Shown: positions 16,279 to 64,000, counted from the stretch's first letter. The stretch: DNA of 64,000 nucleotides from Dehalococcoidia bacterium (GCA_963662435.1 OY759598.1:712507-776506); one strand, 5' to 3'. Numbers and translations are program-made. Notes: generated from the letters alone by a model not told the origin.

Positions 16279-16548
16279 ATGCCAACCGAACAGGCGCTGT
16301 TCTTCACGTGCCCGCACTGCGAGGAGCGGTTCGCCCAGGTGGAGGAGCCAGACAGGGACATCCACACCGGGGAGATCTACCACTGCGGGTCGTGCGGCAT
16401 CCAGGTGATCCTCCATGCGGTGACGGTGGAGGACTACGTGCCACCGCCACGGGCGAGGAGGGACTGCCACTTCTGCCGGCCCGAGCCATGCCGGTTTGGG
16501 CCGAACGTCGATGTTACCAACGACACACGGAAAGGAGAGACGACATGA
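16279..16548 (+). CDS. Small zinc-ribbon protein
   Basis: CPHC..x..CGSC pairs (FFTCPHCEERF...IYHCGSCGIQV). Stop overlaps the next start (ATGA at 16545-16548). Confidence 0.5.
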   Translation: MPTEQALFFTCPHCEERFAQVEEPDRDIHTGEIYHCGSCGIQVILHAVTVEDYVPPPRARRDCHFCRPEPCRFGPNVDVTNDTRKGETT

Positions 16549-17841: not shown

Positions 17842-18075
17842 ACGCCCCCCGCGGGGCCGCATTCCGAGGACCGCCACGTGCGGCCTCGCCGATTCAATCA
17901 AGCGCCTGAGGACGCTTCCAAGACCCACATTCACAAGCGTCCTCTTCTCTCCCTCGGGGTGAGATGGGCGCAGTGCGTCTCCCGTCAAACCCGCCCTGCG
18001 GCGGCGACCAGGGAGAACATGCACCGGGGTCTCGGCGTCGTCCTCCGGCCACCAGGGAACAGGAGGACGACAGAA

Positions 18076-21346: not shown

Positions 21347-21379
21347 TTCTGCCTCCTCTCGTGTTCCCTGAAATGAAGA

Positions 21380-21407
21380 AGACCCGCCTCCTGTCGGGAG
21401 CGGGTCT
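21380..21407 (-). terminator. Hairpin between the 73-aa gene and the recombinase gene (terminator or regulatory)
   Basis: AGACCCGC (21380-21387) pairs with GCGGGTCT (21400-21407). Conserved in the remnant copy at 48085-48112. Confidence 0.4.
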
Positions 21408-21559
21408 GCGAGTAGTACAATCAACTCGCATCACCTGCTCAATCCAGGTGGCGCCACGGCCCGGGGTGTTTGCAGCATCGCCGGGCCAACTTCTTTCTGC
21501 CCACCATTTTACCGCGCCGGACAGGGGGCAGTCAAAGCGCGATGGCTCCCTGCAGCGGT

Positions 21560-21781
21560 TTACTTCGAAGCGAGGCGATAGAGGGCGGGGTGACGACTTA
21601 CCCGCAAGAAAAGCTCCGTGTAGCCGCCGGAGTTGCCGACCCGGTGCTTGGGGAGGAACGTTCCTGCCCAATGAATGCCCAAGACGTCATTCACGTCCCG
21701 CGGGCTGAACGGCTCTTCAACGAGTCCGCGGGCAACGGCGTCCCGAATGCGCCGGATCGTCTCTCCTTCGCGTCTATCCAC
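21560..21781 (-). CDS. Hypothetical small protein (73 aa)
   Basis: Start overlaps the DUF1016 gene stop by 8 nt. Sequence ..GIHWAGTFLPKHRVGNSGGYTELFLRV.. Confidence 0.5.
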   Translation of the reverse strand: MDRREGETIRRIRDAVARGLVEEPFSPRDVNDVLGIHWAGTFLPKHRVGNSGGYTELFLRVSRHPALYRLASK

Positions 21782-23012
21782 CGGGCTGCCCCTCGCTGCT
21801 TGTGTCGGGGGTCATTATAGCCTCTGATGCCATCGAGCCGCGCAGCTCCATCGCCTGCCTTGTCCGGTCGAGTTCCGTCGCCAGCAGTTCCTCGTCTGGC
21901 AGGGTGATCCGGTACTCCCCGGCCATAACAGTATTTGGCAAGCCCTCAAGAGCGTACCGGGCGAGGGCCTCGTCCTTCTCGGAGCACAGGATAAGTCCGA
22001 CGGGCGGGTTCTCGCCCTCGCGGACCCAGTGCTCCCGCGCGTAGTTGAGGTAGAAGTGCATCTGGCCGGCGTCAGCGTGGGTGAACGCCCCTATCTTCAG
22101 GTCGATGACCACGAGACATCGCAGGCCCCGGTGATAGAACAGCAGGTCCACCCTGTACCACTGGCCGCCGACTCGGAGCCTCTTCTGCCTTCCGATGAAG
22201 CAGAAGTCGTCTCCCAATTCCATGAGGAAGGTCTCCAGGTGCCGGATGAGCGCGTCTTCGAGATCGCTCTCCGAGTACTCGTCCTTGAGGTCGAGGAACT
22301 CCAGAACGAAGGGGTCCTTGACTTGCTCCTCGGGCCGCACGAGGTCCTTGGGGCGGTGTGTCCGCCCACTCGTCAACATGGTGGCTTTGTTCTTCGAGAG
22401 GGCGGTGCGCTCGTAGAACTGGGAGCCGATCTGCCGGTTCAGTTGGCGGACCGACCATCCTGCCCGCAACGCCTCCGCCTCGTAGAACCGGCGGGCGCTC
22501 TCATCCCTGACTGACAGCAGCCTGACGTAAGCCGACCAGGGCAACGGAAAGGCAGCCAGAAGGTCGTCGAAGCCCACCTCGGTAGAAGTAGATTCAGAAT
22601 CTCCAGACGGCGTCTGGAGAATAGGCAGGTGAGGGTGCTGAGACAATTTGCCAGACAGTGTCTGGAGAATCTTGTCCGGCGGATGGGAGAGGTAGAACAG
22701 GCGCATGTTGTAGATGTTCTGAATGGAGAAGCCCCGGCCGAACTGCCCGGTCAGGTCCTCCGCCAGCCTCTCGATGAGCGCCGATCCGTACTCGGCCCGC
22801 TCTTCACCCGACTGCTCGGACTCGACGATGCGACGTCCTATCAGCCAGTACGCGGCGGTCATGGCGGCGTTCACCGAGCGGGCGGCCGACTCCCTGGCCG
22901 CGTCGATGATCCTCGACACGTCTCCGAAGACGGCCTCGTAAGGGGCGTCCTGGCTCAGAGCCGAACGCCCCGGCGATGGCTGATTACGAATGGAGGACGA
23001 CTCGGACCGCAT
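21774..23012 (-). CDS. DUF1016/YhcG-type PD-(D/E)XK nuclease
   Basis: WSAYVRLLSV..ARRFYEAEALRAGWSVRQLNRQI..FVLEFLDLKDEYSESDLEDALI..LGDDFCFIGRQKRLRVGGQWYRVDLLFYHRGLRCLVVIDLKIG. Confidence 0.8.
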   Translation of the reverse strand: MRSESSSIRNQPSPGRSALSQDAPYEAVFGDVSRIIDAARESAARSVNAAMTAAYWLIGRRIVESEQSGEERAEYGSALIERLAEDLTGQFGRGFSIQNIYNMRLFYLSHPPDKILQTLSGKLSQHPHLPILQTPSGDSESTSTEVGFDDLLAAFPLPWSAYVRLLSVRDESARRFYEAEALRAGWSVRQLNRQIGSQFYERTALSKNKATMLTSGRTHRPKDLVRPEEQVKDPFVLEFLDLKDEYSESDLEDALIRHLETFLMELGDDFCFIGRQKRLRVGGQWYRVDLLFYHRGLRCLVVIDLKIGAFTHADAGQMHFYLNYAREHWVREGENPPVGLILCSEKDEALARYALEGLPNTVMAGEYRITLPDEELLATELDRTRQAMELRGSMASEAIMTPDTSSEGQPGG

Positions 23013-42483: not shown

Positions 42484-43964
42484 TTAGCGGATGGCGGGGG
42501 AGGTTTGGAGTGATGGGGAGTGAAGCGGAGCGCCGCTGAAGATAGCGCAGAGCCGATCCACCACGGATTGGTCGTCGCCATTGCGCTCCAACGTCCTGAT
42601 TACGCTGGTGAAAGCCGAGAACACATCGGCCCCCTTCTCGTTCTTCGAGCAGTGTGACACCTTCCGCGCGATCACCGCCCCACGAAACTCTCGCTCAGCC
42701 CGGTTGTTGGTCGGCTCAATGCTCGGATCGTCCAGGAAGGGAAGCGCAGCAGGCTGCCCCGGTCATCGTGCCAGCACAACTCGTTCTGCAGCCGGTAGTT
42801 GTCCGCATCCGCAATCGGACGGTCGCGGAGATGATAGCTCATCTGGCGCTTCAACCGCTCGGCCTGCACACCAAAGTCGACAGCCTCACCTCGATGATAT
42901 GCCTCCCGCAACTCCATCGCCTCTCGCAGAAGGCCGCTCAAACGCTTGCCGAAGCTGCGGCCTCTCCCCGTCTTGCTCTTGACCACCTCGCTGATCGAGC
43001 GTAGCACGTGCGCCAGGCACTTCTGCTGTCTCACCTCGGACAGCGCCTGAGCATCGTAACTGCGACCCCGGTCGGTCACCATCACCCCTGTGTAGTCCGC
43101 AGGAACCATCTCGCGCACCTCTTCGTTCCGGTGACGAGCGCGAACCTGATACACCGTCGCCTCTTCTGTCTCGAACGCCATCAGAAACGCCGGCTCGCCT
43201 CCAACTCGCCAGCCCGTGTCGTCGGTGTGGACGACCGGACTCGCTCGCACCGATGTCCGCAGCGTACGGTAGGCGTCACCCACCGCATCGGCACTAAGGC
43301 GCAGCGCGTCCTGGCTGATCGCCCTCTGACTCACTCTCACCCCGGCCAGCGCCCTGAGAACGGCAGGAACCTTCCGTACCGGAACGCCCACCCCATAGTG
43401 GAGCACGTGGGCCGCCGCCATCAGCCGCTTCCCCACTCGGTGGGCGCTGGCCCCGTACTGGTCCTGCGCTATGTCGGGATGCCGCCCTCGCACAGCGTTG
43501 CCGCACGACCGGCACCGGCATACCTGCACACGATACGCCGTTATCTGGGGACGTGGAACCGGCAGAAGGTCGGTCACGTAGGCAAGCCGCACTCCCTCAT
43601 GTTCGAGGACGCCTCCACATCCGGGGCAGGTGTCCCAGGACACTGGCACGTCTACAACCGGCTCGGTGATCTCTTCGGCAGACGGCGGCTTGCGGTAGCT
43701 GAACATCCCCATACCCGGCTTGCGGCCAGGACGCTTGGGCTTGCTGCTGCGCTTGCCCTTGGAGAACGGCGCCGCCTGTCGCTTTCCCGCTCGCTTGGCC
43801 TCGGCGAGTTCCTTATGCAACTCTTCGTTGGCTGCCGTCAACCGCGCGTTCTGCTCTTGAAGCCGCGTCACCAACGCGATAAGCTGATCCCGTTCAGACG
43901 GGGACAAGCTTGTGGAACTGCACACATAGCCAAAGTCTAAACCAGCACCCAGCGCTCCCCGCAA
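42484..43964 (-). mobile_element. IS66-family transposase gene with a frameshift near 42760 (probably inactive)
   Basis: Leucine-zipper N-terminus; CPGCGG..CRCRSCG zinc motif; DDE region ..VVHTDDTGWRV..VMVTDRGRSY..QKCLAHVLR. The expected ..LLRF(L)DDPSIEPTNNRAEREFRGAVIARKVSHCSKNEKGA.. requires a 1-nt frame change to join ORFs 42672-43964 and 42484-42675. Confidence 0.75.
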
Positions 43965-53295: not shown

Positions 53296-53383
53296 CACTG
53301 TTTCGAAGGCAAGCCGTCTATTTTCTTCTAAGAAGTTGTAGGCAACCTCGTGTAGAATAGTGCTTCACAAGAGGAGAGCGGTA

Positions 53384-56300
53384 ATGGCCGGACTGAAGGT
53401 TCTACGTGAGACCTGCGTTCCCAGGGACGAAGTGTTATCCGGGGAATTACGTGACGAGATGTTTGCTGCGAACCTATCCGAGGTTGTGCGCGGCGATGCC
53501 CATGAGACCTATCAAGATCCCGACAAGTTCTTTGCAAACACGTACCTTACCGAGCGTGTCAGGTCCTTCTTGAACGAGGTCGTAGGGCGGCTTTCCGGGA
53601 AGGACAGTACCGCCGCCGCATTCTTTAGGCTCGACACGCCCTTTGGCGGCGGCAAGACGCACACCCTCATCAGCCTCTATCACCTGCTGGCATCGAAGAG
53701 GTCCCCAGATTACCTACGCGCGATGGGAGTGGATCCTGCAGATGTGCCCGATACGGTCAAAGTCGTGACGGTCGTGGGTGGCGACCTGAACCCTGCTGAC
53801 GGTGTAAGGAAAGGGGACTCGGTCGTACATCACATATGGGGCGAGATCGCCTATCAGTTGGGTGGAGAGGAAGGCTACGAGCTTGTACGGAATGCCGACC
53901 GGCAGGTCATCGCCCCGGGACCGCAGTTCCTCGACGCTCTGGCGGACGATTCCCCCATCCTGTTCATGATCGATGAGCCGGCAGAGTACATGCGCAGAAT
54001 GGGGAGCTCCGCAGGCCAGCTTCCCGCGTTTCTGAAAACCCTGTCGGAATGGGCGACGGCCGCAAATCGTCCAAGGGCACTTGTTCTGACGCTGGCCTGG
54101 GGTCATGAGACTCAGCATGGCCAGATGGACGCCTTCAACAAAGAGACGTCGGAATTGGTCGAGAAGCTTGATGAAACGTTCAGGGAAATCCAGTCCGTCG
54201 TAAGCCGTCCGGCCCGTGTGGTGACGCCCTCCCAAAGACAGGACATAGAGCCCATCTTGCGCCGCCGGCTGTTCGAGTCCGTTGATATGAACGCCGCCAC
54301 TCCGACGGCCGACGCCTACTTCTCCGCTCTCCGCGACGCGGCAGGGCGAGACACGCCACTCCCGGCGGACGTTGTGCAGGCTTCGTACCGCAAGCAGATC
54401 GAGGATGCGTATCCGTTCCACCCGTCTTTCATCGAAGTCATGGATGGCAAGCTGGCTACCATTCCGAACTTCCAGCGGACGCGGGGCGCGCTCAGACTGG
54501 TGTCGCGCGTCATCCGACGGATTTGGGAACAGAAGCAAAACGATGCGGCTCTCATCCATCCGTTTAGCGTCGATCTGTCCGATCCCGAGACGGTGGAGGA
54601 ATTGGTCGGCAGGCTCGACCGTTCGGCATACTCCGCAGTAGTCAGCTACGACGTAGCCTCCACTGCCGGGGCCGCGCACGCGCAAGAGATCGACAGAGAC
54701 AGTTTTGCGGGGCATCCGCCATACGCCCAGCGCGTGGCCGTCACCCTACTGCTGCACAGTCTTCCCGACCCTCCCGCCAGGGGCGCCAACCTCAACGAGC
54801 TTTTGGCATCGGTTCTGACTCCGAGTTCCGACTCCGCTCACCTCAGAAAGGCCCTCGAATATCTGTCTAATGAGGCGTGGCATCTCGACTACGAAGGTAC
54901 ACGCTACACCTTTAGGACGGAGCCTTCCCTCAATAAGATTGTTCTTGACGAGACCCTGGCCGTTAGCAGGCACGACGCACGGACTGAGTTGGGTCGGCGG
55001 ATTCGGCAAATTTGGAGGACTGCCGGTCTTGAAGTGCGATACTTCCCCGATGCCACCGAGGACTTGGACGACACCACGAATGGCAAGCTGGTGCTGATGC
55101 ACTGGGACACCGCAGACGTTACGTCTGCCAAGAACGCCACTCCGCCCAAGGTCCAGGAGCTTGCCAACTACAAGGGCGTCCAGCAAGACTTCAGGCGCTA
55201 CAGGAACACACTCTTCTTCCTTGTTGCCGACTCCGACCGAACTGAGGGAATGTTTCAGGCGGCACGTCGCTGGCTGGCGCTCGAGCATCTGGTGCAAAAC
55301 AGGAATCGGATGGACGAGATGAAGTTGAGCACAGAGCACAGAGATCGGTTGAGGAATTGGCATAAGGAAGGTGAACTCAGCGTCAGGGTCGCCATCACAC
55401 GCGCATACCGGCATCTGTTCTATCCCCAAGGTATGGAGCAGAGCAGGACGGCATTCGGACACCATGCCTTAATGATAGATGACCAGGGACACGGAAGGAT
55501 AAATCACACCGAGACCATCCTGAAGGTGCTGGAAGAAGACTTGGAGAAGGTCAAGACCGCTTCGGCCGGGTTGCGCTCGCCGGTCATGGTGAAGCAGGAG
55601 ACGTTTGGGGCCAGCGAGGGCGGTCTGGCGCTCGATATGCTTATGGAGCGGTACGCCGAGCGCCCCAGGCTGCCACTCATCATCGCGCCTACCTATTTTC
55701 AGGAAATCGTGCGTGCGGGCGTCGTGAACAAAACGTGGCTCTACTACGACGCCGTCAAGGACATTGCATACGATACGCTCGAACCGGTCACGGACATCGT
55801 ACTCGATGGTCAGCACATGCTCATGCTTGGTGATGAGGCCGTAAAGCGTGGCGTGCAGGTGTGGGCCCCAACTGCTCAGGGCAAAGGCGAGACCGAACAG
55901 GAGGGTGGCGGCAAGGTTTCGGATGTGGGCACCCCGGGGGAGGGTGTGTCCACATCGCCAGTAAAACTCACAGGCGAAGGCGAGCCCCGAAAGGCTCTTG
56001 CCGACGCGATAGCTAAGGCCAAGGACCAGGGTTGGAAGTCCTTCATTTCGATAGCCCTCGAATGGCAAGGAGAAGACGGAGACACCCACTCGTCCATGAG
56101 TCACCTGCGAACCCTGATGGGACAGACACCTGGCGGCGAGGCGGGCGTAAGTTGCAAGTTGACCTGCGAGTTCGGAGACGGGGGAGTGTTGGATACGAGC
56201 TACACCGGCTCATACGAGCGGTACCGATCCGTGGCCAATACACTTGAGGCCCAGGCATCTCAGGCGAAGAAGGCGTTCGTCAGCATGTCACTGACTCTCG

Positions 56301-56419
56301 GTTTCACGGGCGGTTTGGAAGTCGATGGACAGGAAATCTCCGATCTGCGTGAAGCTCTGGAGCTTGTCTCGCTTGGGCACACCGTCGTCACTGCCAAGCG
56401 GTATGATGGAGACGCCTAA
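53384..56419 (+). CDS. DUF499-type P-loop ATPase (1011 aa)
   Basis: GAGGAG upstream of ATG 53384. LRETCVPRDEVLSGELRDEMFAANLSEVVRGDAHETYQDPDKFFANTYLTERV..FRLDTPFGGGKTHTLISLYHL and ..FMIDEPAEY. This N-terminal pattern is characteristic of DUF499. Confidence 0.75.
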   Translation: MAGLKVLRETCVPRDEVLSGELRDEMFAANLSEVVRGDAHETYQDPDKFFANTYLTERVRSFLNEVVGRLSGKDSTAAAFFRLDTPFGGGKTHTLISLYHLLASKRSPDYLRAMGVDPADVPDTVKVVTVVGGDLNPADGVRKGDSVVHHIWGEIAYQLGGEEGYELVRNADRQVIAPGPQFLDALADDSPILFMIDEPAEYMRRMGSSAGQLPAFLKTLSEWATAANRPRALVLTLAWGHETQHGQMDAFNKETSELVEKLDETFREIQSVVSRPARVVTPSQRQDIEPILRRRLFESVDMNAATPTADAYFSALRDAAGRDTPLPADVVQASYRKQIEDAYPFHPSFIEVMDGKLATIPNFQRTRGALRLVSRVIRRIWEQKQNDAALIHPFSVDLSDPETVEELVGRLDRSAYSAVVSYDVASTAGAAHAQEIDRDSFAGHPPYAQRVAVTLLLHSLPDPPARGANLNELLASVLTPSSDSAHLRKALEYLSNEAWHLDYEGTRYTFRTEPSLNKIVLDETLAVSRHDARTELGRRIRQIWRTAGLEVRYFPDATEDLDDTTNGKLVLMHWDTADVTSAKNATPPKVQELANYKGVQQDFRRYRNTLFFLVADSDRTEGMFQAARRWLALEHLVQNRNRMDEMKLSTEHRDRLRNWHKEGELSVRVAITRAYRHLFYPQGMEQSRTAFGHHALMIDDQGHGRINHTETILKVLEEDLEKVKTASAGLRSPVMVKQETFGASEGGLALDMLMERYAERPRLPLIIAPTYFQEIVRAGVVNKTWLYYDAVKDIAYDTLEPVTDIVLDGQHMLMLGDEAVKRGVQVWAPTAQGKGETEQEGGGKVSDVGTPGEGVSTSPVKLTGEGEPRKALADAIAKAKDQGWKSFISIALEWQGEDGDTHSSMSHLRTLMGQTPGGEAGVSCKLTCEFGDGGVLDTSYTGSYERYRSVANTLEAQASQAKKAFVSMSLTLGFTGGLEVDGQEISDLREALELVSLGHTVVTAKRYDGDA

Positions 56420-56889
56420 TGCTTGCGCGAACAGGACGGAGGCCGAAACGATACTCCAAGCCGTTCATCGTGACACTCGACACTTCAGTTCCCCGTATTG
56501 TGGTAAGCCACCAGTCGGCCGATATGAATGGCGCTGGCCAGCACACGGTCACACAGCGAATCGTCACGCTCCAAGGAAGGCGTGCATCGCAGCATATGCC
56601 GATGACTCTGGATATGCTGAGCCGGGCAGGAGCGGACGTCGGGAGAGTTGATGACCGTCACGGTGGCAGGTTGCGCCTGTCCGAGGAGCGCGGCGCGCGG
56701 TTTGCTCTGACGCTGGCGTCCGTCGCGCCCGTGCAGAAGCCGAGCAGGGCCGCGCTCATACGAGCGGGCGTCTCCGAGATGTGCGATGAGGAGGTGTACT
56801 ACTGGTACGCCAAGATGGCGGGAGCATTCGAGCCTTCCGGAGGGAATGACGCGCTCAAGGCGCTGCGAATGCTCTTGGCCGGAGAGTGA
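56419..56889 (+). CDS. Small accessory protein (156 aa)
   Basis: Start overlaps the DUF499 stop (TAATG) and its stop overlaps the next start (GTGA). No motif recognised. Its position matches the small accessory gene often found between DUF499 and DUF1156 genes (from memory, unverified). Confidence 0.5.
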   Translation: MLARTGRRPKRYSKPFIVTLDTSVPRIVVSHQSADMNGAGQHTVTQRIVTLQGRRASQHMPMTLDMLSRAGADVGRVDDRHGGRLRLSEERGARFALTLASVAPVQKPSRAALIRAGVSEMCDEEVYYWYAKMAGAFEPSGGNDALKALRMLLAGE

Positions 56890-58097
56890 ACCGCGCCAAC
56901 TTCCCGATGCCTAGAAGAACTCCAACCATACCCGTTGCTCCCGAAGTCCTAGCTTGGGCGAGGGAGTCGGTCGGCCTATCACAGGAGGAGTTGGGCCGGA
57001 AGATTGGGTCAGCAGAAGTAAACGTACTCGAGTGGGAGCGAACCGACTCCACGACACTTGTCACTCCGACACAGCTGGAAAAAATTGCAGACGCCGTCAA
57101 ACGCCCGACAGCCGCGCTCCTCCTGAATGAGCCTCCCAAGAACCCGCGACCGCCGAAGGACTTTCGACGACCGCACAGGCGACGCAAGAGCCACTCTCCC
57201 GACCTGAGCAGGGCGATACGTCGCGCTCGCCGCCTTCAGCGCGTCGCCGCAGAAGTATTTCACGAATTGGAGGAACACGCGCAGCCCGATCTTCCTGCGA
57301 CATTCTCACTCGCCGACGACACGGAATGGTCGGCGCGTCAAGTTCGCCACACTCTCGAAGTTCCACACGACATCCATACCGAATGGAACGACGCACGCGT
57401 CGCCCTTAGAGCTTGGCGCTCAATCATAGAGTCGCGAAATATCCTGGTCTTTAGCGCGGACTTTCCCCGCGAAGAGGCGCAGGGATTCAGCCTTTCGGAT
57501 GAAGAACCCAACGTCATCACCCTAAGTGCCAAAGACCCGCCTACCACGCGCTGCTTCACCTTGTGGCACGAATTCGGACATCTGCTGCTGCGAAACACGG
57601 CGCTTTGTGTCATGGATGAGTCTGAGACTGATGGGTTAGACGATGATCGTCGGACGGAGGACTGGTGCCACCGCTTCGCCGAGGCCATGCTCGTCGACAG
57701 GGATTTGCTCCAATCGCGCCCTCAGACATCAGCCGTAGCGAGTCGTCTACCCGGGTACCAAGTGGACCTGCGCAGCCTCGCGTCGAATTTCAAAGTCAGC
57801 CAACACGTCGCCCTTTTCAGGATGTGGCATCTAGGGTTGATTCCCGAGAGCATGTTCCGGGAGGAGTATGTGCGTGTTCAGGCAGAGCAGGAGGGAGCCG
57901 CGCGTGAGAGCAAGAAGAAGAGAGGCGGTCCACCCGACCCGGCGAATATCGCCGTCCGCGACAGCGGACAGCGGCTCGCAAGGGCTTTGCTCCAAGCATT
58001 CGACAGAGGCAGCCTCACCCATGCGGAGCTTGCGGACTACTTCGGCGCCCGCCTGAAGCACATAGAGAATATCCGTCGGGAAGCCCATCGACAATAA
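56886..58097 (+). CDS. XRE-type HTH fused to an ImmA/IrrE-family zinc metallopeptidase
   Basis: LAWARESVGLSQEELGRKIGSAEVNVLEWE (HTH), and later CFTLWHEFGHLLL (HExxH). Confidence 0.75.
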   Translation: MNRANFPMPRRTPTIPVAPEVLAWARESVGLSQEELGRKIGSAEVNVLEWERTDSTTLVTPTQLEKIADAVKRPTAALLLNEPPKNPRPPKDFRRPHRRRKSHSPDLSRAIRRARRLQRVAAEVFHELEEHAQPDLPATFSLADDTEWSARQVRHTLEVPHDIHTEWNDARVALRAWRSIIESRNILVFSADFPREEAQGFSLSDEEPNVITLSAKDPPTTRCFTLWHEFGHLLLRNTALCVMDESETDGLDDDRRTEDWCHRFAEAMLVDRDLLQSRPQTSAVASRLPGYQVDLRSLASNFKVSQHVALFRMWHLGLIPESMFREEYVRVQAEQEGAARESKKKRGGPPDPANIAVRDSGQRLARALLQAFDRGSLTHAELADYFGARLKHIENIRREAHRQ

Positions 58098-58107
58098 GAG
58101 AAGACGT

Positions 58108-58719
58108 ATGAATTCGACCGAAAGGATATATTGCCTCGATACAAGCGCTCTGCTTTTCATGGCGGACACCTATTCGACTGACGTGTTCCCCGAAGTCTGG
58201 GAGCAGTTGACGGAGTTAGCCCATGGCGAAGTGGTGATGGCTCCCAGAGAGGTTCATCGGGAGCTCCTAAGGAAAGAAGACAATGGAGCTTTGACGTGGG
58301 CCAAAGCGAACCGGGAGCTGTTCCGCCCACTGGATGCCGGTCAGAGTAGCGTCGTCGGCGCAATCGTAAGCTCGCCCCGATTTCAGGGTCTCATCGACCT
58401 CGATGCCGAACTGCCCGACGCCGACCCATTTGTCGTAGCGCTCGCTGCTACTCACCGGAATGAACTCTTGGCCTCCGCTCTTCCCGCTGTTGTCGGTGTG
58501 AACCCTGCCCGTGTTCGCGTAAGTCTAGAAGAGGTGTGCGAAGAGGAAAGCTACCCGGTCCGATTCCTCACTCCCTACGAAATGCTTCGGGAGAACGATA
58601 TCGACGTTCCGGAACCCGGTGGGAGGGGCCTAGCGGACTTGTACGGCATATGGAAGGGGCCGAGCTTTACCGAGGAGGAGATCGTGGCAGTCAAACTCGG
58701 AGCGTGGCGCGATCGATGA
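58108..58719 (+). CDS. DUF4411-type PIN-like protein with a ~45-aa C-terminal extension
   Basis: IYCLDTSALLFMAD..VWEQL..GEVVMAPREVHREL..WAKANRELF..DADPFVVALA. The tail ..GGRGLADLYGIWKGPSFTEEEIVAVKLGAWRDR is extra relative to what I recall of the family length. Confidence 0.6.
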   Translation: MNSTERIYCLDTSALLFMADTYSTDVFPEVWEQLTELAHGEVVMAPREVHRELLRKEDNGALTWAKANRELFRPLDAGQSSVVGAIVSSPRFQGLIDLDAELPDADPFVVALAATHRNELLASALPAVVGVNPARVRVSLEEVCEEESYPVRFLTPYEMLRENDIDVPEPGGRGLADLYGIWKGPSFTEEEIVAVKLGAWRDR

Positions 58720-59117
58720 CAACGTACGTCTTGGATACTCAGGCCTTTGTGTGGTACCTGTCTGGCGACTCGAGATTATCCTCCACAGCACTTAACATCA
58801 TTCGCGACCCTGGCGATGGCAACCAGTTGGCGATCCCGACAATCTGCCTCGTCGAGGCGTGGGACCTAGACAGAAAGGGAAAACAGGGAGCCGCCCTCTG
58901 GGGCCACATAACGCAAGGACTCAGAGTCAAAAAAATCCTCATAAGAGATCTCGATTTAAGCGTCATCAATCTGATGCCCAACCTGTGGACCGATACCCAC
59001 GACATGATAGTCATAGCCACCGCCCTCGACCTGCAAGCCCGATATGGTGCAGCTACTATCATATCGAAAGACTGCAAGATGAGATGCGACCAATCCCTGG
59101 TACCCTGCATCTGGTAA
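58716..59117 (+). CDS. PIN-domain (VapC-like) ribonuclease toxin
   Basis: ATGA overlap with the upstream gene. MTTYVLDTQAFVWYL..CLVEAWDL..DTHDMIVIATAL..IISKDCKM supplies the D/E/D/D acidic residues. Confidence 0.7.
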   Translation: MTTYVLDTQAFVWYLSGDSRLSSTALNIIRDPGDGNQLAIPTICLVEAWDLDRKGKQGAALWGHITQGLRVKKILIRDLDLSVINLMPNLWTDTHDMIVIATALDLQARYGAATIISKDCKMRCDQSLVPCIW

Positions 59118-59136
59118 ACCTCAATAAAGGACACCC

Positions 59137-62028
59137 ATGAAAACCAAGCGACTCATCGAAGAGTGGCTGCCCATCAAGGAGATCGGCGTCGAGTCGCGGC
59201 GCGAGAACTCCACTGGCCAGCATCCACCTCCAAACCGGCTCCATGTCTGGTGGGCGCGGCGGCCCCTCACCGCCTCCCGCGCCGCCGTCCTCGCTTCCAT
59301 CCTTCCCGCGTGGGGCGATGGCGATGGTTTCCTCAGCGAGCACTTCGAGTCAGAGAGCGAATACCACCGCTGGTTCCTGCGGATGCTGGGGATTCTCGGC
59401 GACCCGGTGGCGGCGGAGGATGCAAGAAACCGAGCGCGTGAGCGTAATGTGCGCTTGGAGCGAAATCCTTTCGACTATCCTCGCGCATTTTCCTCCCAGC
59501 TTGAAGCCAGTGACACGAAAATACTGCAAAATATCTGCAAAGACACGCCAACTGTGCTCGACCCGATGGCAGGTGGAGGAACCATCCCATTCGAGTCTCT
59601 GAGGCTAGGACTCACGACTTTAGCGGGGGAACTTAACCCCGTTGCCTGTACCGTCTTGAAAGCTACATTAGACTATCCGCTCAATTTCGGCACATCCCTA
59701 ATTGAAGATATCGTGAAGTGGGGCACACGACTAGAGGAATACTGCTATGAGTCCCTACTGAAATTCTTTCCGGCGCAGCAAGGCGAGCGGATACTTGATT
59801 ATACTTGGGCCCGCACCGTCCCGTGTCCGACGACGGGGAAGCCCGTGCCGCTGTCGCCCAACTGGTGGCTGCGGAAGCAGACGGCGGACTCGGTCGCCGT
59901 GAACATACTGCCCTGCGAGCCTGATTGGAACGAGTGCCGCTTCGAGATCGTGCGCGGCAGGCAGGCCGACCTCGAAAGTTTGTACGCCCCGGGCCAGGGC
60001 ACCATCGCGCGCGGCAACGCAGTCTCACCGTGGAGCGGTGATCCCGTGCCCGGCGACTACATCAAGAAGGTGGCTCAGCGGGATGGCATGGGGGCGCAAC
60101 TCTTCGCTCTCTGCGTCGACCGTGGCCAGGGACGAGACTTCCGGCTCCCCACGCAGGACGACATCGCCGCCGTCGCACGCGCCAAGAGTGCCCTCACCGA
60201 ACGCTGGGATGACTGGCTCGCCTCAGGTCTGATTCCGACGGAATCTATTCCCGTCGGCAACAAGACGGCCGAGCCGCTCCGCTACGGTATGTACCGGTGG
60301 GACCAGCTCTTCGCGCCCCGCCAGCTCTTCGCCATGCTCACCTATCTCGAACCTCTCTGCGAGTTCGCCCCAGAGATGGAGCGTGAGCTCGGTGCCGAGC
60401 GTGCCGCTGCTGTACGTACATATCTGGGCCTCGCCCTGGACAAAATACCCAATCGCAACAGCACGTTCTGCACATGGATACCGCAACGGGAAGTCATTGG
60501 ACAAGTGTTTCAAAGGCATGACTTTTCCATTAAGTGGTCGTTCGCTGAGATGAACATGGCGTTGAAGGACAAGGGGGCATTTCCATGGGCGCTGACCCAA
60601 GTAGTGGACTCCTACAGGGGGCTATGCCGCCTTGTGGAGCCGTCGCGTCCGATGTTCGACGTACAGCCCGGAAACGGTCGGAGTGGACCGGTCGAGGTGA
60701 CGCGGGCGGGCGCCGCAAACCTTTCCCACCTACCCGACGCCTCCGTAGACGCCGTGGTCGTCGACCCGCCCTACGGCAACAACGTCATGTACGCCGAGCT
60801 TTCCGACTTCTTCTACGTCTGGCTGAAGCGCAGCGTCGGCGATCTGTACCCCGGCTGGTTCGACTCCGAGCTTGTGGACAAGGACGCCGAGGCGGTGGCG
60901 AACCCCGCGCGGTTCGAGAACGCTCGCGGCGGGCGGGCCAAGGAGCTTGCCACACGCGACTACCTGATGAAAATGCGTCGCGTCTTCCGCGAGATGCGGA
61001 GGGTCGTCAAGCCGGAAGGCGCTATGACCGTCATGTTCACGCACCGAGAGACGGAGATGTGGAACGCGCTCGGACTTGCCCTGCTCGAAACGGGTTGGGA
61101 GATCGGCTCCTCGTGGCCCGTCCATACCGAGTCGGAGCACAGTCTCCACATAGCGCGAAAGAACGCCGCGCGCAGCACGATCTTCCTCTTCTGCCGCCCG
61201 CGCGAACTGAGTAATGAGGTCTCGTTTTGGAACCAGGACCTTCGGGACGAAGTTCGGCGCACTGCATCGGAGAGGGCGCGTGATTTCCAGCAGGCAGGCA
61301 TCGAGGGCGTTGACCTCTACCTCTCAACCTTCGGCCCCGTGCTAGGCGTTCTGTCGCGCAATTGGCCGATCATCAGCGAGGAGGTGGACAGGGAGACGGG
61401 CGAGGCGGTGCGACTCGAGCCGGAAGCGGCGCTGAGCATCGCGCGGCGCGAGGTGTTCGCGCTCCAGCGCGAGGGCCTCCTGGACGGGCGGGCAGCCAAT
61501 TGGGACCTCGCCACGGACTGGTATCTGCTGGCATGGAAGAGCTTCGGCGCGCGCGAATTCAGCTACGACGAGGCCCGCAAGATGGCGATGGCGCACGGCG
61601 CGGACGCCGACGAGATTCGCAATCGCCACAAGCTCCTATCTCGCAAGGGCGACTCCGTGACGTTGCTCCGTCCCGACCAGAGAGAGGGCCGCGAACACGT
61701 CAACCCCGACGCCGTCACTTTCTCGCGGACGATCGACGCTCTCCACACCGCCATGTGGCTGTACGACCTTGAGGGCGAGCGCAGTTGCCGGCAGTTCCTC
61801 CAAGGCGCGGGCCTGATCGTGGACGCCGACTTCCAAACCCTCGTGCGTGCTGCCATAAACGCTGTCCCACGAACCCGCACTTACACCCGCGGGGAGGTAA
61901 CCGGCTTCAGAGTCCCCGAGGCCCAGACCCTCGAAAACATGCGAGTGAGCCTCTTCCCCGGCATCGAGGTCGATGAGAAGTTGGACACCGATGTCGGTGC
62001 AGAGCAAGCGACGATGGACGTCGGGTAG
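59137..62028 (+). CDS. DUF1156-type DNA methyltransferase (963 aa)
   Basis: MKTKRLIEEWLPIKEIGVESRRE..NRLHVWWARRPLTASRAAVLASIL (DUF1156 signature), VLDPMAGGGTIPFES (SAM motif) and VVVDPPYGNNVMYAELSDFFYVWL (DPPY). Confidence 0.8.
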   Translation: MKTKRLIEEWLPIKEIGVESRRENSTGQHPPPNRLHVWWARRPLTASRAAVLASILPAWGDGDGFLSEHFESESEYHRWFLRMLGILGDPVAAEDARNRARERNVRLERNPFDYPRAFSSQLEASDTKILQNICKDTPTVLDPMAGGGTIPFESLRLGLTTLAGELNPVACTVLKATLDYPLNFGTSLIEDIVKWGTRLEEYCYESLLKFFPAQQGERILDYTWARTVPCPTTGKPVPLSPNWWLRKQTADSVAVNILPCEPDWNECRFEIVRGRQADLESLYAPGQGTIARGNAVSPWSGDPVPGDYIKKVAQRDGMGAQLFALCVDRGQGRDFRLPTQDDIAAVARAKSALTERWDDWLASGLIPTESIPVGNKTAEPLRYGMYRWDQLFAPRQLFAMLTYLEPLCEFAPEMERELGAERAAAVRTYLGLALDKIPNRNSTFCTWIPQREVIGQVFQRHDFSIKWSFAEMNMALKDKGAFPWALTQVVDSYRGLCRLVEPSRPMFDVQPGNGRSGPVEVTRAGAANLSHLPDASVDAVVVDPPYGNNVMYAELSDFFYVWLKRSVGDLYPGWFDSELVDKDAEAVANPARFENARGGRAKELATRDYLMKMRRVFREMRRVVKPEGAMTVMFTHRETEMWNALGLALLETGWEIGSSWPVHTESEHSLHIARKNAARSTIFLFCRPRELSNEVSFWNQDLRDEVRRTASERARDFQQAGIEGVDLYLSTFGPVLGVLSRNWPIISEEVDRETGEAVRLEPEAALSIARREVFALQREGLLDGRAANWDLATDWYLLAWKSFGAREFSYDEARKMAMAHGADADEIRNRHKLLSRKGDSVTLLRPDQREGREHVNPDAVTFSRTIDALHTAMWLYDLEGERSCRQFLQGAGLIVDADFQTLVRAAINAVPRTRTYTRGEVTGFRVPEAQTLENMRVSLFPGIEVDEKLDTDVGAEQATMDVG

Positions 62029-62038
62029 GAGGGATGCT

Positions 62039-63613
62039 ATGAGCGAATCACCCGATCAAAAGAACCTCGAACTCAGCGTCACCAACCTCGGCCCCATAGC
62101 CAAAGCGGAGATCGACCTGCGCCCGATGACCGTCTTCGTAGGCCCCAGCAACACGGGCAAATCGTACCTGGCGATCCTAATCTACGCGCTGCATCGGGCG
62201 TTCGGGGGCGGTGCCATTGCTCCAAGTTTCATACGGAGGTACAGAAGATCCCCTATCTTCGGAATCGGTCGCCGCGCCCGGAATCATCAGCCGATATCAT
62301 CAGTAGAAACTGACGCCCTGACCAAGTGGCTTGATGGGATGTTGCACAAGGTAGATGCAGAGGACTACCCGGAGGCCTTTTCCGCTACCCTACCGGAGTC
62401 CGTCGCCGGGCCGGTCCGCCGTCAACTGGAAGATACCGGCGATTCCGGTGTGCTCTTGGACGCTGAGATCACACGGTGCTTCGGCGTCGAAGATACTTCG
62501 GCTCTGGTCCGCAACCAAGTCAAGAGCGGCGGAAGAGTGGTCGTGAGACGGCCGGTTGCCAGCCCGTCTACAGCCCCAGCATCGATCGCGTATGAATTCA
62601 CTATCAAGGGAAAACGCCGTGATCTTGCAGCATTGATGCCCATCGACGCTCCTTTGCGGTTTGTCGCAGATAAGCGGCAGTACATGGAAGCCATTGATGC
62701 ACTAACTTGGCTCGACAGTGAACCGAGGAGCGATGAGGAGCACGATATCAAACTAGACGTGGCGAATAACCTTATAGAAGAGCTTACCGATGCGGTCGGC
62801 TCACAAATTGTCGCTCCGTTGAGTCATCCGGCCCACTATCTGCCCGCCGACCGCACGGGGGTAATGCACTCACACCGAACAGTGGTGGGCTCAATTATCG
62901 GGCAGGCATCCCGCGCGGGATTGCAGCACGATAGCCCTCTTCCTCAACTGTCCGGCGTCCTGGCGGACTTCCTCAGTCAACTTATTGGTTTAGATGACAA
63001 GCCGGAAGGAAATCTCGATAGGAGACTCGCCCACGGCATCGAGAGAGACATGCTTCAAGGTAAAGTTCGCATGGAGAGGTCTATCGTAGGGTACCCGGAG
63101 TTCTTCTACCGGCCAACTGGCTGGACACACGATCTGCGTTTGATGAACTCCTCATCAATGGTATCCGAACTCGCGCCCGTCGTTCTGTACCTGCGGCACG
63201 TCGTTCGACCGGGCGAGACACTGACCATCGAGGAGCCGGAGTCTAGCCTGCACCCCGCGATGCAGGTGGAGTTCATCCGGCATCTTGCGGCGGCGGTGCG
63301 CGCTGGAGTCCGCGTCATGATAACCACGCACAGCGAATGGGTGTTGGATGCGCTTGCCAACCTCGTGCTCATGTCCGACCTTCCGAAGTCGCGTCGGAAG
63401 GGATTCCCGGGAGGGGACTTTGCACTACATGCCAGTGATGTGGGCGTGTGGCTCTTCGAGTCGAAGGAACGCCCCAAGGGTACTGTGGTGAGGGAGATTC
63501 CCTTTAGCGCAGATTATGGAAGCTACGCTTCCGACTTCAACGAGGTCGCCAAGGGGACTTACAATCACTGGGCTAGAGTAGCAAACCTTATCGAAGAAGA
63601 TGGCGAGAGATGA
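62039..63613 (+). CDS. ABC/AAA_21-type ATPase (524 aa)
   Basis: GGAGGG upstream of ATG 62039. LELSVTNLGPIAKAEIDLRPMTVFVGPSNTGKSYL (Walker A) and ..LTIEEPESSLHPAMQ (Walker B/D-loop), ITTHSEWVLDAL (H-loop). Confidence 0.7.
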   Translation: MSESPDQKNLELSVTNLGPIAKAEIDLRPMTVFVGPSNTGKSYLAILIYALHRAFGGGAIAPSFIRRYRRSPIFGIGRRARNHQPISSVETDALTKWLDGMLHKVDAEDYPEAFSATLPESVAGPVRRQLEDTGDSGVLLDAEITRCFGVEDTSALVRNQVKSGGRVVVRRPVASPSTAPASIAYEFTIKGKRRDLAALMPIDAPLRFVADKRQYMEAIDALTWLDSEPRSDEEHDIKLDVANNLIEELTDAVGSQIVAPLSHPAHYLPADRTGVMHSHRTVVGSIIGQASRAGLQHDSPLPQLSGVLADFLSQLIGLDDKPEGNLDRRLAHGIERDMLQGKVRMERSIVGYPEFFYRPTGWTHDLRLMNSSSMVSELAPVVLYLRHVVRPGETLTIEEPESSLHPAMQVEFIRHLAAAVRAGVRVMITTHSEWVLDALANLVLMSDLPKSRRKGFPGGDFALHASDVGVWLFESKERPKGTVVREIPFSADYGSYASDFNEVAKGTYNHWARVANLIEEDGER

Positions 63614-64000
63614 CCGTAGTAGAAGCGGTTCGGAAGAAGGTGGACCCTCGCCTGCTGGCATCTCGCTGTAAAGAAGGAGACTGCTCGGTACGTATAGACC
63701 GAACGTCTGGGAAATTTGCTTTGGTTCATGTTGATGTGCCTGGGGATCCACCCTGGTCATTGGCTACAAAGGATAAGAAACGTTGTGACTACTTGTTCGT
63801 GGGAGGCGCAGATAAACGCGGGAACCCATGGGTAGTCCCATTGGAACTGACGACCTATGATGAGAAGCCCTCAAGCACGATTGCAGGTCAACTTCAGGCG
63901 GGCGCCGGAATCGCCGAATGCCTCATTCCCAAGAACTCAACCGTTCGGTTCTGTCCAATTCTCGCTTCTTTGAATCTTAGCAGGTATACCAGGCTTCAAT
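63610..64000 (+). CDS. Unknown partner protein of the ABC-type ATPase (5' part only; runs off the window)
   Basis: ATGA overlap at 63610-63613. Manual translation MTVVEAVRKKVDPRLLASRCKEGDCSVRIDRTSGKFALVHVDVPG..KKRCDYLFVGGADKRGNPWVVPLELTTYDEKPSS.. stays open to 64000. Not in the ORF track because there is no stop in the window. Confidence 0.5.
   Translation, partial: MTVVEAVRKKVDPRLLASRCKEGDCSVRIDRTSGKFALVHVDVPGDPPWSLATKDKKRCDYLFVGGADKRGNPWVVPLELTTYDEKPSSTIAGQLQAGAGIAECLIPKNSTVRFCPILASLNLSRYTRLQ

What the first reader, a model, noticed from the sequence alone, without database searches (positions are those of the whole stretch)
53384..64000. Eight-gene translationally coupled operon: DUF499 ATPase and DUF1156 methyltransferase interleaved with ImmA/IrrE-DUF4411, PIN and ABC-ATPase modules, with no helicase in view
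All eight genes are on the same strand. Junctions are overlaps or very short gaps: TAATG at 56417-56421, GTGA at 56886-56889, a 10-nt gap, ATGA at 58716-58719, a 19-nt gap, a 10-nt gap, and ATGA at 63610-63613. From memory, DUF499-type ATPases and DUF1156-type methyltransferases co-occur in defence islands. They are usually found with a small accessory protein and a DEAD/DEAH helicase (helicase-methylase-ATPase type systems). Here the ATPase, the small protein and the methylase are present, but no helicase is visible. Instead, three toxin/sensor-type genes sit between the ATPase and the methylase, and an ABC-type ATPase plus an unknown protein follow it. Tight coupling suggests one functional unit rather than neighbouring independent systems. 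As far as I know, a methylation-linked defence core with built-in abortive-infection effectors has not been characterised.
Basis: partly seen in the sequence, partly recalled or inferred. Interest (0 to 1): 0.8.

Follow-up and report, generated by a model that had tools for sequence, protein, structure and literature searches.

The report
Hma defence operon with embedded cassettes
This is a restriction-modification-like "Hma" (DUF499 ATPase / DUF1156 methylase / helicase) anti-phage operon with two smaller defence modules inserted between its genes, an arrangement already described in the literature; its "missing" helicase almost certainly lies just past the end of the window.

Summary
There are eight co-oriented, almost gap-free genes (56 non-coding nt in 10.6 kb), and every domain call is confirmed by HMMs.

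- Four close relatives (methylase 78-88% identical) have the same gene order. Each continues after a 126-160-aa homologue of gene 8 into a 1080-1090-aa PLD(HKD)+SNF2 helicase. So "no helicase" is a window-edge artefact.
- The core is four genes: DUF499, DUF7680, DUF1156 methylase and helicase. It occurs bare in other relatives (72% and 53% identity).
- A 66% relative carries HEC-01 (AAA_21+DUF4276) where the window has M78-DUF4411-PIN.
- The M78-DUF4411-PIN triad and the ABC-ATPase/small-protein pair both occur outside Hma loci.

The locus is therefore an Hma (also called "BREX-related" or BR) system with two embedded, autonomous cassettes. Embedding of this kind is already published: Payne et al. 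2024 found it in 62.7% of Hma systems, with 96.7% of embedded genes co-oriented (pooled with BREX, DISARM and type I RM), and Liu et al. 2024 found it in 66.5%.

Modest residual novelty:
- The small subunit is DUF7680, not the DUF3780 that defines the published Type-2 BR subtype.
- The M78-DUF4411-PIN triad is not in PADLOC.
- The ABC-ATPase/gene 8 pair matches only the PD-T4-4_A and PDC-M47A ATPase models.

The parts
53353..53376 (+). Putative promoter -10 box (TAGAAT, 53353-53358) and Shine-Dalgarno sequence (AGGAG, 53372-53376) just upstream of gene 1. This is the left edge of the conserved module.
   Evidence: TAGAAT/TAGAGT and the purine-rich box are conserved in all six aligned relatives, although the upstream flanks are otherwise unrelated. 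DNA homology to relatives begins at 53321-53352. Promoter function is inferred; the generic sigma-70 scan did not call it.
53384..56419 (+). Gene 1: HmaC, a DUF499 AAA+ (ORC/STAND-like) ATPase of 1011 aa. Core component.
   Evidence: Pfam DUF499 3e-36. PADLOC HmaC 1.7e-100 over residues 4-787. NCBIfam DUF499_antiphage 1e-65, below the equivalog cut-off. Walker A GGGKT and Walker B IDEP are present.
56419..56889 (+). Gene 2: DUF7680 small protein of 156 aa. Conserved fourth core component; function unknown.
   Evidence: Pfam DUF7680 1.9e-24. It sits directly after DUF499 in all close relatives and in bare cores. 10 of 10 small proteins sampled from distant loci are DUF7680. AF2 model has pLDDT 83.5, with 4 strands and 6 helices. 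No PDB fold match, best E = 0.1.
56886..58097 (+). Gene 3: HTH_3 + Peptidase_M78 (ImmA/IrrE, DUF955) protein, likely starting at ATG 56907. Antitoxin/sensor of embedded cassette 1.
   Evidence: Pfam Peptidase_M78 2.8e-14 and HTH_3 5.4e-5. PADLOC RmrA (RosmerTA antitoxin) 4.8e-17. HEFGH zinc motif present. PHROG 2439 transcriptional regulator 3.8e-41.
58108..58719 (+). Gene 4: DUF4411 PIN-like nuclease of 203 aa. Toxin/effector of cassette 1.
   Evidence: Pfam DUF4411 2.8e-18. The DUF4411.1 family is described as the toxin downstream of HTH-DUF955 fusions (PMC5499597).
58716..59117 (+). Gene 5: PIN (VapC-like) nuclease of 133 aa, overlapping gene 4 by 4 nt. Third member of cassette 1.
   Evidence: Pfam PIN 7.3e-5. 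The acidic tetrad D7/E47/D96/D119 is invariant in six homologues. The same M78-DUF4411-PIN triad with the same 4-nt overlap occurs outside Hma in L088 and L089. P0202 (295 aa) carries both DUF4411 and PIN, consistent with a fusion.
59137..62028 (+). Gene 6: HmaB, a DUF1156 N6-adenine-type DNA methyltransferase of 963 aa. Core component.
   Evidence: Pfam DUF1156 2e-20 and N6_N4_Mtase 3.8e-7. PADLOC HmaB 1.2e-85. DPPY (543-546) and the DPMAGGG motif are invariant in 40 homologues.
62039..63613 (+). Gene 7: ABC-type ATPase (AAA_15/AAA_21) of 524 aa. Sensor ATPase of embedded cassette 2.
   Evidence: Pfam AAA_15 1.6e-17 and AAA_21 7.8e-10. PADLOC PD-T4-4_A 3.7e-31 and PDC-M47A 7.1e-27. Walker A GPSNTGKS and EEPESSLHP are present. 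The middle segment 62197-62816 is not alignable at DNA level with L001 and L084.
63610..64000 (+). Gene 8 (truncated; full length about 160 aa in relatives): small partner of the ABC ATPase. Possibly a PD-(D/E)xK-like nuclease.
   Evidence: 82% identical to the 160-aa proteins of L082 and L084 that precede the helicase. Conserved C59-D60 ... E79-L-(K/T) ... QLQAGA. A homologue lies within 300 nt downstream of the ATPase in 28 metagenome loci. No Pfam, PADLOC or PHROG hit, apart from a weak PDC-M47B hit (3e-4) for the L001 homologue. The nuclease assignment is motif-based inference only.

Best explanation
**Identity.** The region holds the first eight genes of a nine-gene operon. The operon is an Hma system (also called a DUF499-centred BREX-related, BR, system) carrying two embedded defence cassettes.

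**Core (four genes).**
- Gene 1: DUF499/HmaC AAA+ ATPase.
- Gene 2: a DUF7680 small protein.
- Gene 6: DUF1156/HmaB N6-adenine methylase.
- A PLD(HKD)-SNF2 helicase-nuclease (HmaA type), which lies just beyond position 64000.

Inferred mode of action of the core, by analogy with published Hma/BR and BREX work:
- The methylase marks host DNA.
- The ATPase, probably together with DUF7680, recognises unmarked incoming DNA.
- The helicase-nuclease translocates on that DNA and cuts it.

**Slot A (between DUF7680 and the methylase).** This holds a self-contained three-gene toxin-antitoxin-like module:
- Gene 3: an HTH-M78 (ImmA/IrrE-type) repressor/protease.
- Gene 4: the PIN-like nuclease DUF4411.
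- Gene 5: a PIN nuclease.

It most likely acts as an abortive-infection module of the RosmerTA type.

**Slot B (between the methylase and the helicase).** This holds a self-contained two-gene module:
- Gene 7: an ABC-ATPase sensor.
- Gene 8: a small protein, possibly a PD-(D/E)xK-like effector.

**Expression.** The cassettes were acquired by insertion into permissive sites of the operon. All genes are probably co-transcribed from a promoter immediately upstream of gene 1.

**Shown:** domain identities, synteny, modularity, and independent occurrence of both cassettes.

**Inferred:** every biochemical activity, the co-transcription, and the presence of the helicase in this particular genome.
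For: - HMM identities are given.
- L001, L082, L083 and L084 (methylase 78-88% identical) share the exact order DUF499-DUF7680-M78-DUF4411-PIN-MTase-ABC-small protein. Each then has a 1080-1090-aa PLDc_2+SNF2 helicase whose start overlaps the small gene; in L083 it is called as two genes. That helicase hits PADLOC PLD_Helicase at 5e-72 and HmaA at 1e-65, and NCBIfam phospholipD_antiphage at 1e-112.
- Bare cores occur in L085 (72%) and in Sphaerobacter thermophilus L087 (53%).
- L086 (66%) has HEC-01A/B (8.7e-146 and 5.3e-68) in slot A, and homologues of genes 7 and 8 in slot B.
- Across the 87 loci held at that point (80 from genomes, 7 from relatives' contigs), the order DUF499-small protein-MTase-helicase is general. 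The helicase lies downstream in 80 of 87. Slot B is expanded (>=400 nt) in 28 of 80, and slot A (>=2 kb) in 31 of 73.
- The embedded ORFs are dominated by ABC ATPases, ASCH, GmrSD, DUF4276 and IS200.
- The triad occurs without Hma in L089, and in L088 beside a decayed DUF7680 pseudogene.
- The gene 7/8 pair recurs in 28 metagenome loci. Of the 8 with >=5 kb on both flanks, 6 have no Hma gene. In L109 the pair is embedded in a different Hma lineage.
- Literature: Hma embedding is reported in 62.7% and 66.5% of systems, with 96.7% of embedded genes co-oriented in pooled Hma/BREX/DISARM/type I RM data. HmaA alone defends against T4.
Against: - The helicase itself is not in the window, and the source contig could not be retrieved.
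- The small subunit is DUF7680, not the DUF3780 that defines the published Type-2 BR subtype. No sequence relation between the two was detected.
- No experimental data exist for this clade.
- HmaB methylation could not be shown to protect phage T4 in the only experimental Hma study, so the RM-like model is itself unproven.
- The nine-gene arrangement is conserved across 78-88% identity and is tightly packed. This is compatible with some functional coupling between core and cassettes, which sequence data cannot exclude.
- No PADLOC RmrT or PD-T4-4_B model matches genes 4, 5 or 8.
Confidence: 0.87

Rival explanations
1. A single integrated, helicase-less, methylation-linked defence system in which the ImmA/DUF4411/PIN and ABC-ATPase genes are the built-in abortive-infection effectors that replace the helicase.
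For: - The eight genes are packed tightly on one strand.
- The same arrangement is conserved in four relatives.
Against: - Those same relatives all carry the PLD-SNF2 helicase immediately after gene 8.
- Bare cores and a swapped cassette exist.
- Both cassettes occur without Hma.
Confidence: 0.03
2. The cassettes are embedded but functionally coupled to the core. They act as back-up abortive-infection modules held in check by the Hma core, or triggered by phage anti-Hma factors, as PrrC is by EcoprrI/Stp. Embedding would then be selected for function and not only for co-transfer.
For: - The full nine-gene order is retained across 78-88% methylase identity, with 4-nt overlaps and gaps of 10-19 nt.
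- The same ABC pair sits in slot B in the 66% relative and in a different Hma lineage, L109.
- The idea is raised in the literature for embedded ABC-ATPase systems and for 'backup effectors'.
Against: - Both cassettes persist without any Hma gene (L089; 6 of 8 well-flanked pair loci).
- In L088 the triad outlived a decayed Hma locus.
- Slot contents are highly variable.
- There is no direct evidence of interaction.
Confidence: 0.18
3. The triad is mainly an addiction (plasmid-stabilising toxin-antitoxin) module that keeps the mobile island in the genome, rather than an anti-phage effector.
For: - HTH-DUF955 + PIN-like is a predicted TA architecture.
- The Hma module sits in mobile contexts: integrases, TraG/TrwB and IS elements in relatives, and a serine recombinase, IS66 and a group II intron in the window.
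Against: - RosmerTA, which has the same antitoxin architecture, gives phage defence.
- Most genes embedded in Hma that were tested are defensive: 7 of 9.
- The two roles are not mutually exclusive.
Confidence: 0.12

Closest known systems
Hma system (HmaA helicase, HmaB methylase, HmaC ATPase; PADLOC, Payne et al. 2021) with 'Hma-embedded' defence genes (Payne et al. 2024, bioRxiv 10.1101/2024.01.29.577857; Liu et al. 2024, PMC11232893)
   Same: - The DUF499 ATPase and DUF1156 methylase match the HmaC and HmaB models strongly.
- The relatives' helicase matches HmaA.
- Co-oriented defence cassettes sit between the hma genes.
- ABC-ATPase two-gene cassettes are the commonest embedded type.
- One relative carries the named cassette HEC-01.
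   Different: - The gene order here is C-(small protein)-B-A, with a conserved extra DUF7680 gene.
- The helicase carries an N-terminal PLD/HKD nuclease, not the C-terminal PD-(D/E)xK nuclease of the Halomonas HmaA that was tested.
- The M78-DUF4411-PIN triad is not among the embedded systems named in those papers' main texts.
Type-2 DUF499-centred BREX-related (BR) system (NAR 2026, PMC12839542)
   Same: - The tripartite core: DUF499 ATPase, DUF1156 N6-methylase and Swi2/Snf2 helicase with an N-terminal HKD endonuclease.
- One small standalone alpha+beta protein lies inside the locus.
- 'Backup' nucleases are embedded in the core locus.
   Different: - The small protein is Pfam DUF7680, not DUF3780.
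- No DUF3780 hit was seen in this locus or among the small proteins checked in the related loci.
- The predicted fold (4 strands plus 6 helices) resembles the published description of DUF3780 (4-stranded sheet plus 5 helices), but homology was not demonstrated.
RosmerTA (Millman et al. 2022) and the HTH-DUF955-PIN-like three-component TA systems (Matelska et al. 2017, PMC5499597)
   Same: - An HTH + Zn-peptidase (M78/ImmA) antitoxin-like gene is followed by a toxin gene.
- DUF4411.1 downstream of an HTH-DUF955 fusion is exactly the published arrangement.
   Different: - There are two nuclease genes (DUF4411 plus a canonical PIN, coupled by a 4-nt overlap) instead of one toxin.
- No PADLOC RmrT model matches either.
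- This module has not been tested experimentally.
PD-T4-4 (Vassallo et al. 2022), the PADLOC candidate PDC-M47, and the HEC-01/02/03 ABC-ATPase two-gene systems
   Same: An ABC (AAA_15/AAA_21) ATPase is followed by a small effector gene. The best PADLOC hits are PD-T4-4_A (3.7e-31) and PDC-M47A (7.1e-27).
   Different: - The partner protein matches no PD-T4-4_B model, and matches PDC-M47B only weakly (3e-4, in one homologue).
- The ATPase hits cover mainly the C-terminal half.
PrrC embedded in the EcoprrI type I restriction-modification system
   Same: An abortive-infection nuclease module is nested, co-oriented, inside a restriction-modification operon.
   Different: - No homology.
- No evidence here that the core silences the embedded module.

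Membership tests
Hma (PADLOC) | HmaC: DUF499 AAA+ ATPase | tested here: met
   PADLOC HmaC 1.7e-100 (335.7 bits, residues 4-787); Pfam DUF499 3e-36
Hma (PADLOC) | HmaB: DUF1156-type DNA methyltransferase | tested here: met
   PADLOC HmaB 1.2e-85; Pfam DUF1156 2e-20; DPPY motif invariant
Hma (PADLOC) | HmaA: SNF2 helicase(-nuclease) in the same locus | not testable with these tools
   The window ends inside gene 8 and the source contig could not be retrieved. The feature is met in all four close relatives. The L082 helicase hits HmaA at 1.1e-65 and PLD_Helicase at 5.1e-72. A helicase lies downstream of the methylase in 80 of 87 loci.
Type-2 BR system (PMC12839542) | N-terminal HKD endonuclease fused to a Swi2/Snf2 helicase | tested here: met
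   Met in relatives only. PLDc_2 + SNF2-rel_dom + Helicase_C. The HAKLGILHD...GSINES motif is present in L001.
Type-2 BR system (PMC12839542) | Standalone DUF3780 protein in the core locus (98% of taxa) | tested here: not met
   The small protein is DUF7680. 10 of 10 sampled homologous positions are DUF7680 with no DUF3780 hit at E<=0.1. DUF7680 was found 18 times among slot ORFs, while DUF3780 is not among the 25 most frequent families listed. No NCBIfam hit.
RosmerTA | RmrA antitoxin with HTH + Zn-peptidase (M78) | tested here: met
   PADLOC RmrA models, best 4.8e-17 over residues 18-338; Pfam HTH_3 + Peptidase_M78; HEFGH motif
RosmerTA | Adjacent RmrT toxin family member | tested here: not met
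   Genes 4 and 5 have no PADLOC hit at E<=0.01. They are DUF4411 and PIN instead.
HTH-DUF955-PIN-like three-component TA (Matelska 2017) | DUF4411.1 gene directly downstream of a fused HTH-DUF955 gene | tested here: met
   Genes 3 and 4 are 10 nt apart.
VapBC type II TA | PIN toxin with conserved acidic residues, preceded by a small VapB antitoxin | tested here: not met
   The PIN tetrad D7/E47/D96/D119 is conserved. But the upstream gene is DUF4411, overlapping by 4 nt, and no VapB-like gene is present.
PD-T4-4 | PD-T4-4_A ABC ATPase plus PD-T4-4_B partner | tested here: inconclusive
   A: 3.7e-31, best stretch residues 354-502 only. B: no hit for gene 8 or for the full-length homologues.
PDC-M47 (PADLOC candidate) | PDC-M47A ATPase plus PDC-M47B partner | tested here: inconclusive
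   A: 7.1e-27. B: only the L001 homologue hits, at 3e-4.

The most novel reading that the evidence does not exclude
Two readings remain open.

1. The DUF499-DUF7680-DUF1156-HKD/SNF2 arrangement is a distinct, not yet named four-gene Hma/BR subtype. Its small subunit would be unrelated in sequence to DUF3780.
2. In this clade the two embedded modules (a two-nuclease M78-DUF4411-PIN triad and an ABC-ATPase/small-nuclease pair) are functionally wired to the core as back-up abortive-infection arms. They would fire when a phage blocks Hma restriction, as PrrC does with EcoprrI.
Probability: 0.18. Interest if true: 0.6.

Novelty: new member of a known kind. Interest (0 to 1): 0.27.

Why it matters
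- **A clean natural example of defence-system embedding.** Relatives at graded distances show the same core in three states: empty, loaded with a different named cassette (HEC-01), and loaded with the window's cassettes. This defines two insertion slots, after DUF7680 and after the methylase.
- **Two untested candidate defence modules.** Both also occur on their own and could be cloned directly. One is the M78-DUF4411-PIN triad, which is not in PADLOC. The other is the ABC-ATPase plus about-160-aa partner, whose ATPase matches the PD-T4-4_A and PDC-M47A models while the partner does not convincingly match either B model.
- **DUF7680 as a core subunit.** It is the conserved small subunit of a large Hma clade spanning many phyla, and it appears in no paper in the searched library.
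- **A practical point for the scan.** 'Missing component' calls at a window edge need the flanking sequence before they are scored as novel.

Tried and rejected
- **Retrieving the source contig failed.** Exact look-ups of the window's methylase and ABC ATPase, and of the 100%-identical P0001, found no record. The cluster look-up gave no accessions.
- **Helicase upstream.** I looked for one at this locus. None is adjacent. The ResIII helicase at 17878-20031 belongs to a different gene pair.
- **DUF7680 function.** Foldseek against the PDB gave nothing significant: best E = 0.1, TM <= 0.24. There were no PADLOC, NCBIfam or PHROG hits.
- **Gene 8 fold.**
  - The single-sequence AF2 model of the truncated protein was unusable (pLDDT 36.9).
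  - The profile search against PDB sequences gave only noise.
  - The PD-(D/E)xK assignment therefore rests on a motif alone.
- **PDB sequence searches** with the DUF499 ATPase and the ABC ATPase gave no hit.
- **Plasmid tblastn** for genes 4, 5 and 7 gave only distant matches or none.
- **The generic promoter/terminator scan** found no more sites than in shuffled sequence and no + strand terminator between genes. This is uninformative for a Chloroflexota-like genome.
- **MADS membership rejected.** Only marginal hits were found: mad2 at 1.8e-4 and MAD3 at 9e-4.

Full report
**1. Observation**

The interval 53384-64000 holds eight ORFs, all on the + strand. The quoted junction strings are exactly as written: TAATG at 56417, GTGA at 56886, ATGA at 58716 and ATGA at 63610. 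The 10-, 19- and 10-nt gaps are also correct. Only 56 nt of the 10.6 kb is non-coding.

One correction concerns gene 3.
- Alignments to relatives start at residue 7-8 of gene 3.
- The genes called in relatives begin about 19 nt after the DUF7680 stop.
- Gene 3 therefore probably starts at ATG 56907, not at GTG 56886.

**2. Identities**

| Gene | Assignment | Key scores |
|---|---|---|
| g1 | DUF499 / HmaC | Pfam 3e-36; PADLOC 1.7e-100 |
| g2 | DUF7680 | Pfam 1.9e-24 |
| g3 | HTH_3 + Peptidase_M78 | PADLOC RmrA 4.8e-17 (RosmerTA antitoxin model) |
| g4 | DUF4411 | Pfam 2.8e-18 |
| g5 | PIN | Pfam 7.3e-5 |
| g6 | DUF1156 + N6_N4_Mtase / HmaB | PADLOC 1.2e-85 |
| g7 | AAA_15 / AAA_21 | PD-T4-4_A 3.7e-31; PDC-M47A 7.1e-27 |
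| g8 | no hit | - |

NCBIfam gives sub-threshold matches to DUF499_antiphage and DUF1156_antiphage. The expected motifs are all present:
- Walker A/B in g1 and g7.
- HEFGH in g3.
- DPPY in g6.

**3. The helicase**

Exact look-ups of the window's own proteins failed, but close relatives were retrieved.
- L001 (methylase 88% identical), L082 and L083 (81%) and L084 (78%) have the identical order: DUF499-DUF7680-M78-DUF4411-PIN-MTase-ABC.
- This is followed by a 126-160-aa homologue of g8 (82% identical in L082 and L084).
- Next comes a 1080-1090-aa PLDc_2 + SNF2 + Helicase_C protein whose start overlaps the small gene. In L083 it is called as two genes.
- That helicase matches PADLOC PLD_Helicase (5e-72), HmaA (1e-65) and NCBIfam phospholipD_antiphage (1e-112).
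- Across the 87 loci held at that point, a helicase homologue lies downstream of the methylase in 80.

The window simply stops 390 nt into g8, about 90 nt before the expected helicase start.

**4. Core versus cargo**

- L085 (72%) and Sphaerobacter thermophilus L087 (53%) have only DUF499-DUF7680-MTase-helicase.
- L086 (66%) has an AAA_21 + DUF4276 pair between DUF7680 and the methylase. This pair matches HEC-01A/B, the 'Hma-embedded candidate 01', at 8.7e-146 and 5.3e-68. L086 also has g7/g8 homologues between the methylase and the helicase.
- Among the 87 loci held at that point (80 from genomes, 7 from relatives' contigs), the DUF499-to-methylase interval is >=2 kb in 31 of 73. The methylase-to-helicase interval is >=400 nt in 28 of 80.
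- The ORFs in these intervals are mostly ABC ATPases (Septu PtuA, HEC-01A and similar), ASCH, GmrSD_N, DUF4276, PIN and IS200.
- The small protein after DUF499 is DUF7680 in 10 of 10 bare loci sampled from many phyla.

So there is a four-gene core with two insertion slots.

**5. Autonomy of the cassettes**

The M78-DUF4411-PIN triad:
- It occurs with the same 4-nt DUF4411/PIN overlap in L089, among metabolic genes and a phage portal gene, with no Hma remnant.
- It also occurs in L088, where a frame-shifted, stop-containing DUF7680 remnant lies just upstream. There the triad has outlived a decayed Hma locus.
- P0202 (295 aa) carries both DUF4411 and PIN, consistent with a fusion.
- The PIN acidic tetrad is invariant.

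The g7/g8 pair:
- A g8 homologue lies within 300 nt downstream of the ATPase in 28 metagenome loci.
- Of the 8 pairs with >=5 kb on both sides, 6 have no Hma gene.
- In L109 the pair sits between the helicase and the methylase of a different Hma lineage.

**6. Module boundary and mobility**

- DNA similarity to all relatives starts only 30-60 nt upstream of g1, and the upstream flanks are unrelated.
- A TAGAAT box and an AGGAG sequence are conserved in that short leader. I read these as the module's own promoter and ribosome-binding site; this is inference.
- Relatives sit next to integrases, TraG/TrwB genes, IS elements and other defence genes.
- The window itself carries a serine recombinase, an IS66 transposase and a group II intron.

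**7. Comparison with what is known**

- Payne et al. 2021 defined Hma.
- Payne et al. 2024 showed that 62.7% of 1,485 Hma systems contain embedded genes. Across Hma, BREX, DISARM and type I RM pooled, 96.7% of embedded genes are co-oriented with the flanking system. ABC-ATPase two-gene cassettes are the commonest type, and 7 of 9 tested cassettes defend on their own.
- Liu et al. 2024 reported insertions in 66.5% of hma loci and showed that HmaA alone protects against T4.
- The 2026 NAR survey renamed these BR systems. It defined Type-2 by an HKD-Snf2 helicase plus a standalone DUF3780, and it noted embedded back-up nucleases.
- HTH-DUF955 + DUF4411 is a published predicted TA architecture. 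RosmerTA is its experimentally validated analogue.

**8. What is left that is new**

- DUF7680 replaces DUF3780, with no detectable sequence relation.
- Its AF2 model (pLDDT 83.5) has four strands and six helices and no PDB neighbour. This resembles the published verbal description of DUF3780.
- 'DUF7680' occurs in no paper of the searched library.
- The two-nuclease triad has no PADLOC model. The g7/g8 pair is covered only through its ATPase, by PD-T4-4_A and PDC-M47A.

These are incremental points.

**9. Mechanism (inferred)**

- The methylase marks self DNA.
- DUF499, possibly with DUF7680, recognises unmarked DNA.
- The HKD-SNF2 protein restricts it.
- The M78 protein represses and neutralises the DUF4411 and PIN nucleases until it is triggered.
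- The ABC ATPase senses infection and licenses g8. A PD-(D/E)xK-like D...E-x-K/T motif in g8 is the only support for a nuclease role, because structure prediction of the truncated protein failed.
- Functional coupling between core and cassettes cannot be excluded, but nothing found here requires it.

**10. Verdict**

The locus is an ordinary, though neatly layered, member of a known kind.

Noticed in passing
window 16308-17582 and 17878-20031 (+); L082 1-483 and 1088-3481: A DUF6094-type methyltransferase and a ResIII helicase in the window are about 84% identical to the gene pair that lies directly upstream of the Hma module in L082 and L083. In the window the pair is 33 kb away from the Hma module. 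This suggests a shared mobile-element backbone that has been expanded here by insertions.
   Followed up: partly
window 19601-21424 (-), 21774-23012 (-), 42672-43964 (-): A large serine recombinase (Resolvase + Recombinase + Zn_ribbon_recom), a YhcG/DUF1016 PDDEXK nuclease and an IS66-family transposase lie between that pair and the Hma module. This is consistent with a mosaic genomic island.
   Followed up: no
window 6766-8742 (+): A group II intron-type ORF (RVT_1 + intron maturase + HNH).
   Followed up: no
window 9842-11392 (+): A 516-aa protein with a Rad52/Rad22 single-strand annealing domain, in a high-GC stretch. The 10-20 kb region has GC 0.66-0.68, against 0.55-0.60 for 28-48 kb.
   Followed up: no
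L088 6505-6781: A decayed DUF7680 pseudogene (two reading frames, in-frame stop, 33-40% identical to g2 residues 30-154) lies immediately upstream of an intact M78-DUF4411-PIN triad. No other Hma gene is nearby. The cassette has survived the loss of its host system.
   Followed up: yes
P0202 (295 aa, ENA metagenome): One protein carries both DUF4411 and PIN domains. This looks like a fusion of the two adjacent nuclease genes and hints that they act together.
   Followed up: no
window 59401-59806 and 62197-62816: Two segments lose DNA-level alignment with otherwise 76-85% identical relatives. One is in the methylase (about residues 89-224) and one is in the ABC ATPase (about residues 53-260, between Walker A and the signature region). 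They may be hypervariable specificity or sensor regions exchanged by recombination.
   Followed up: partly
L109 3642-15437 (also L119): The same ABC-ATPase/small-protein pair is embedded between the helicase and the methylase of a distantly related Hma locus (methylase 25% identical) with the opposite gene order (A-[pair]-B-C). The same cassette family has been captured independently.
   Followed up: partly
L002-L081 slot ORFs: Seven ASCH-domain proteins were found among the ORFs lying between core Hma genes in distant loci. ASCH/PUA domains are described as modified-base readers fused to DUF3780 in BR systems.
   Followed up: no
L086 18359-22925; L085 1-5123 and 17133-17781: Relatives' Hma modules sit in defence islands. 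L086 lies beside a Pkinase/TPR pair and a BubE-ThiF-Multi_ubiq (bacterial ubiquitin-like) cluster. L085 lies beside a helicase + SMC-like AAA_23 pair and a HepT/MNT toxin-antitoxin.
   Followed up: no
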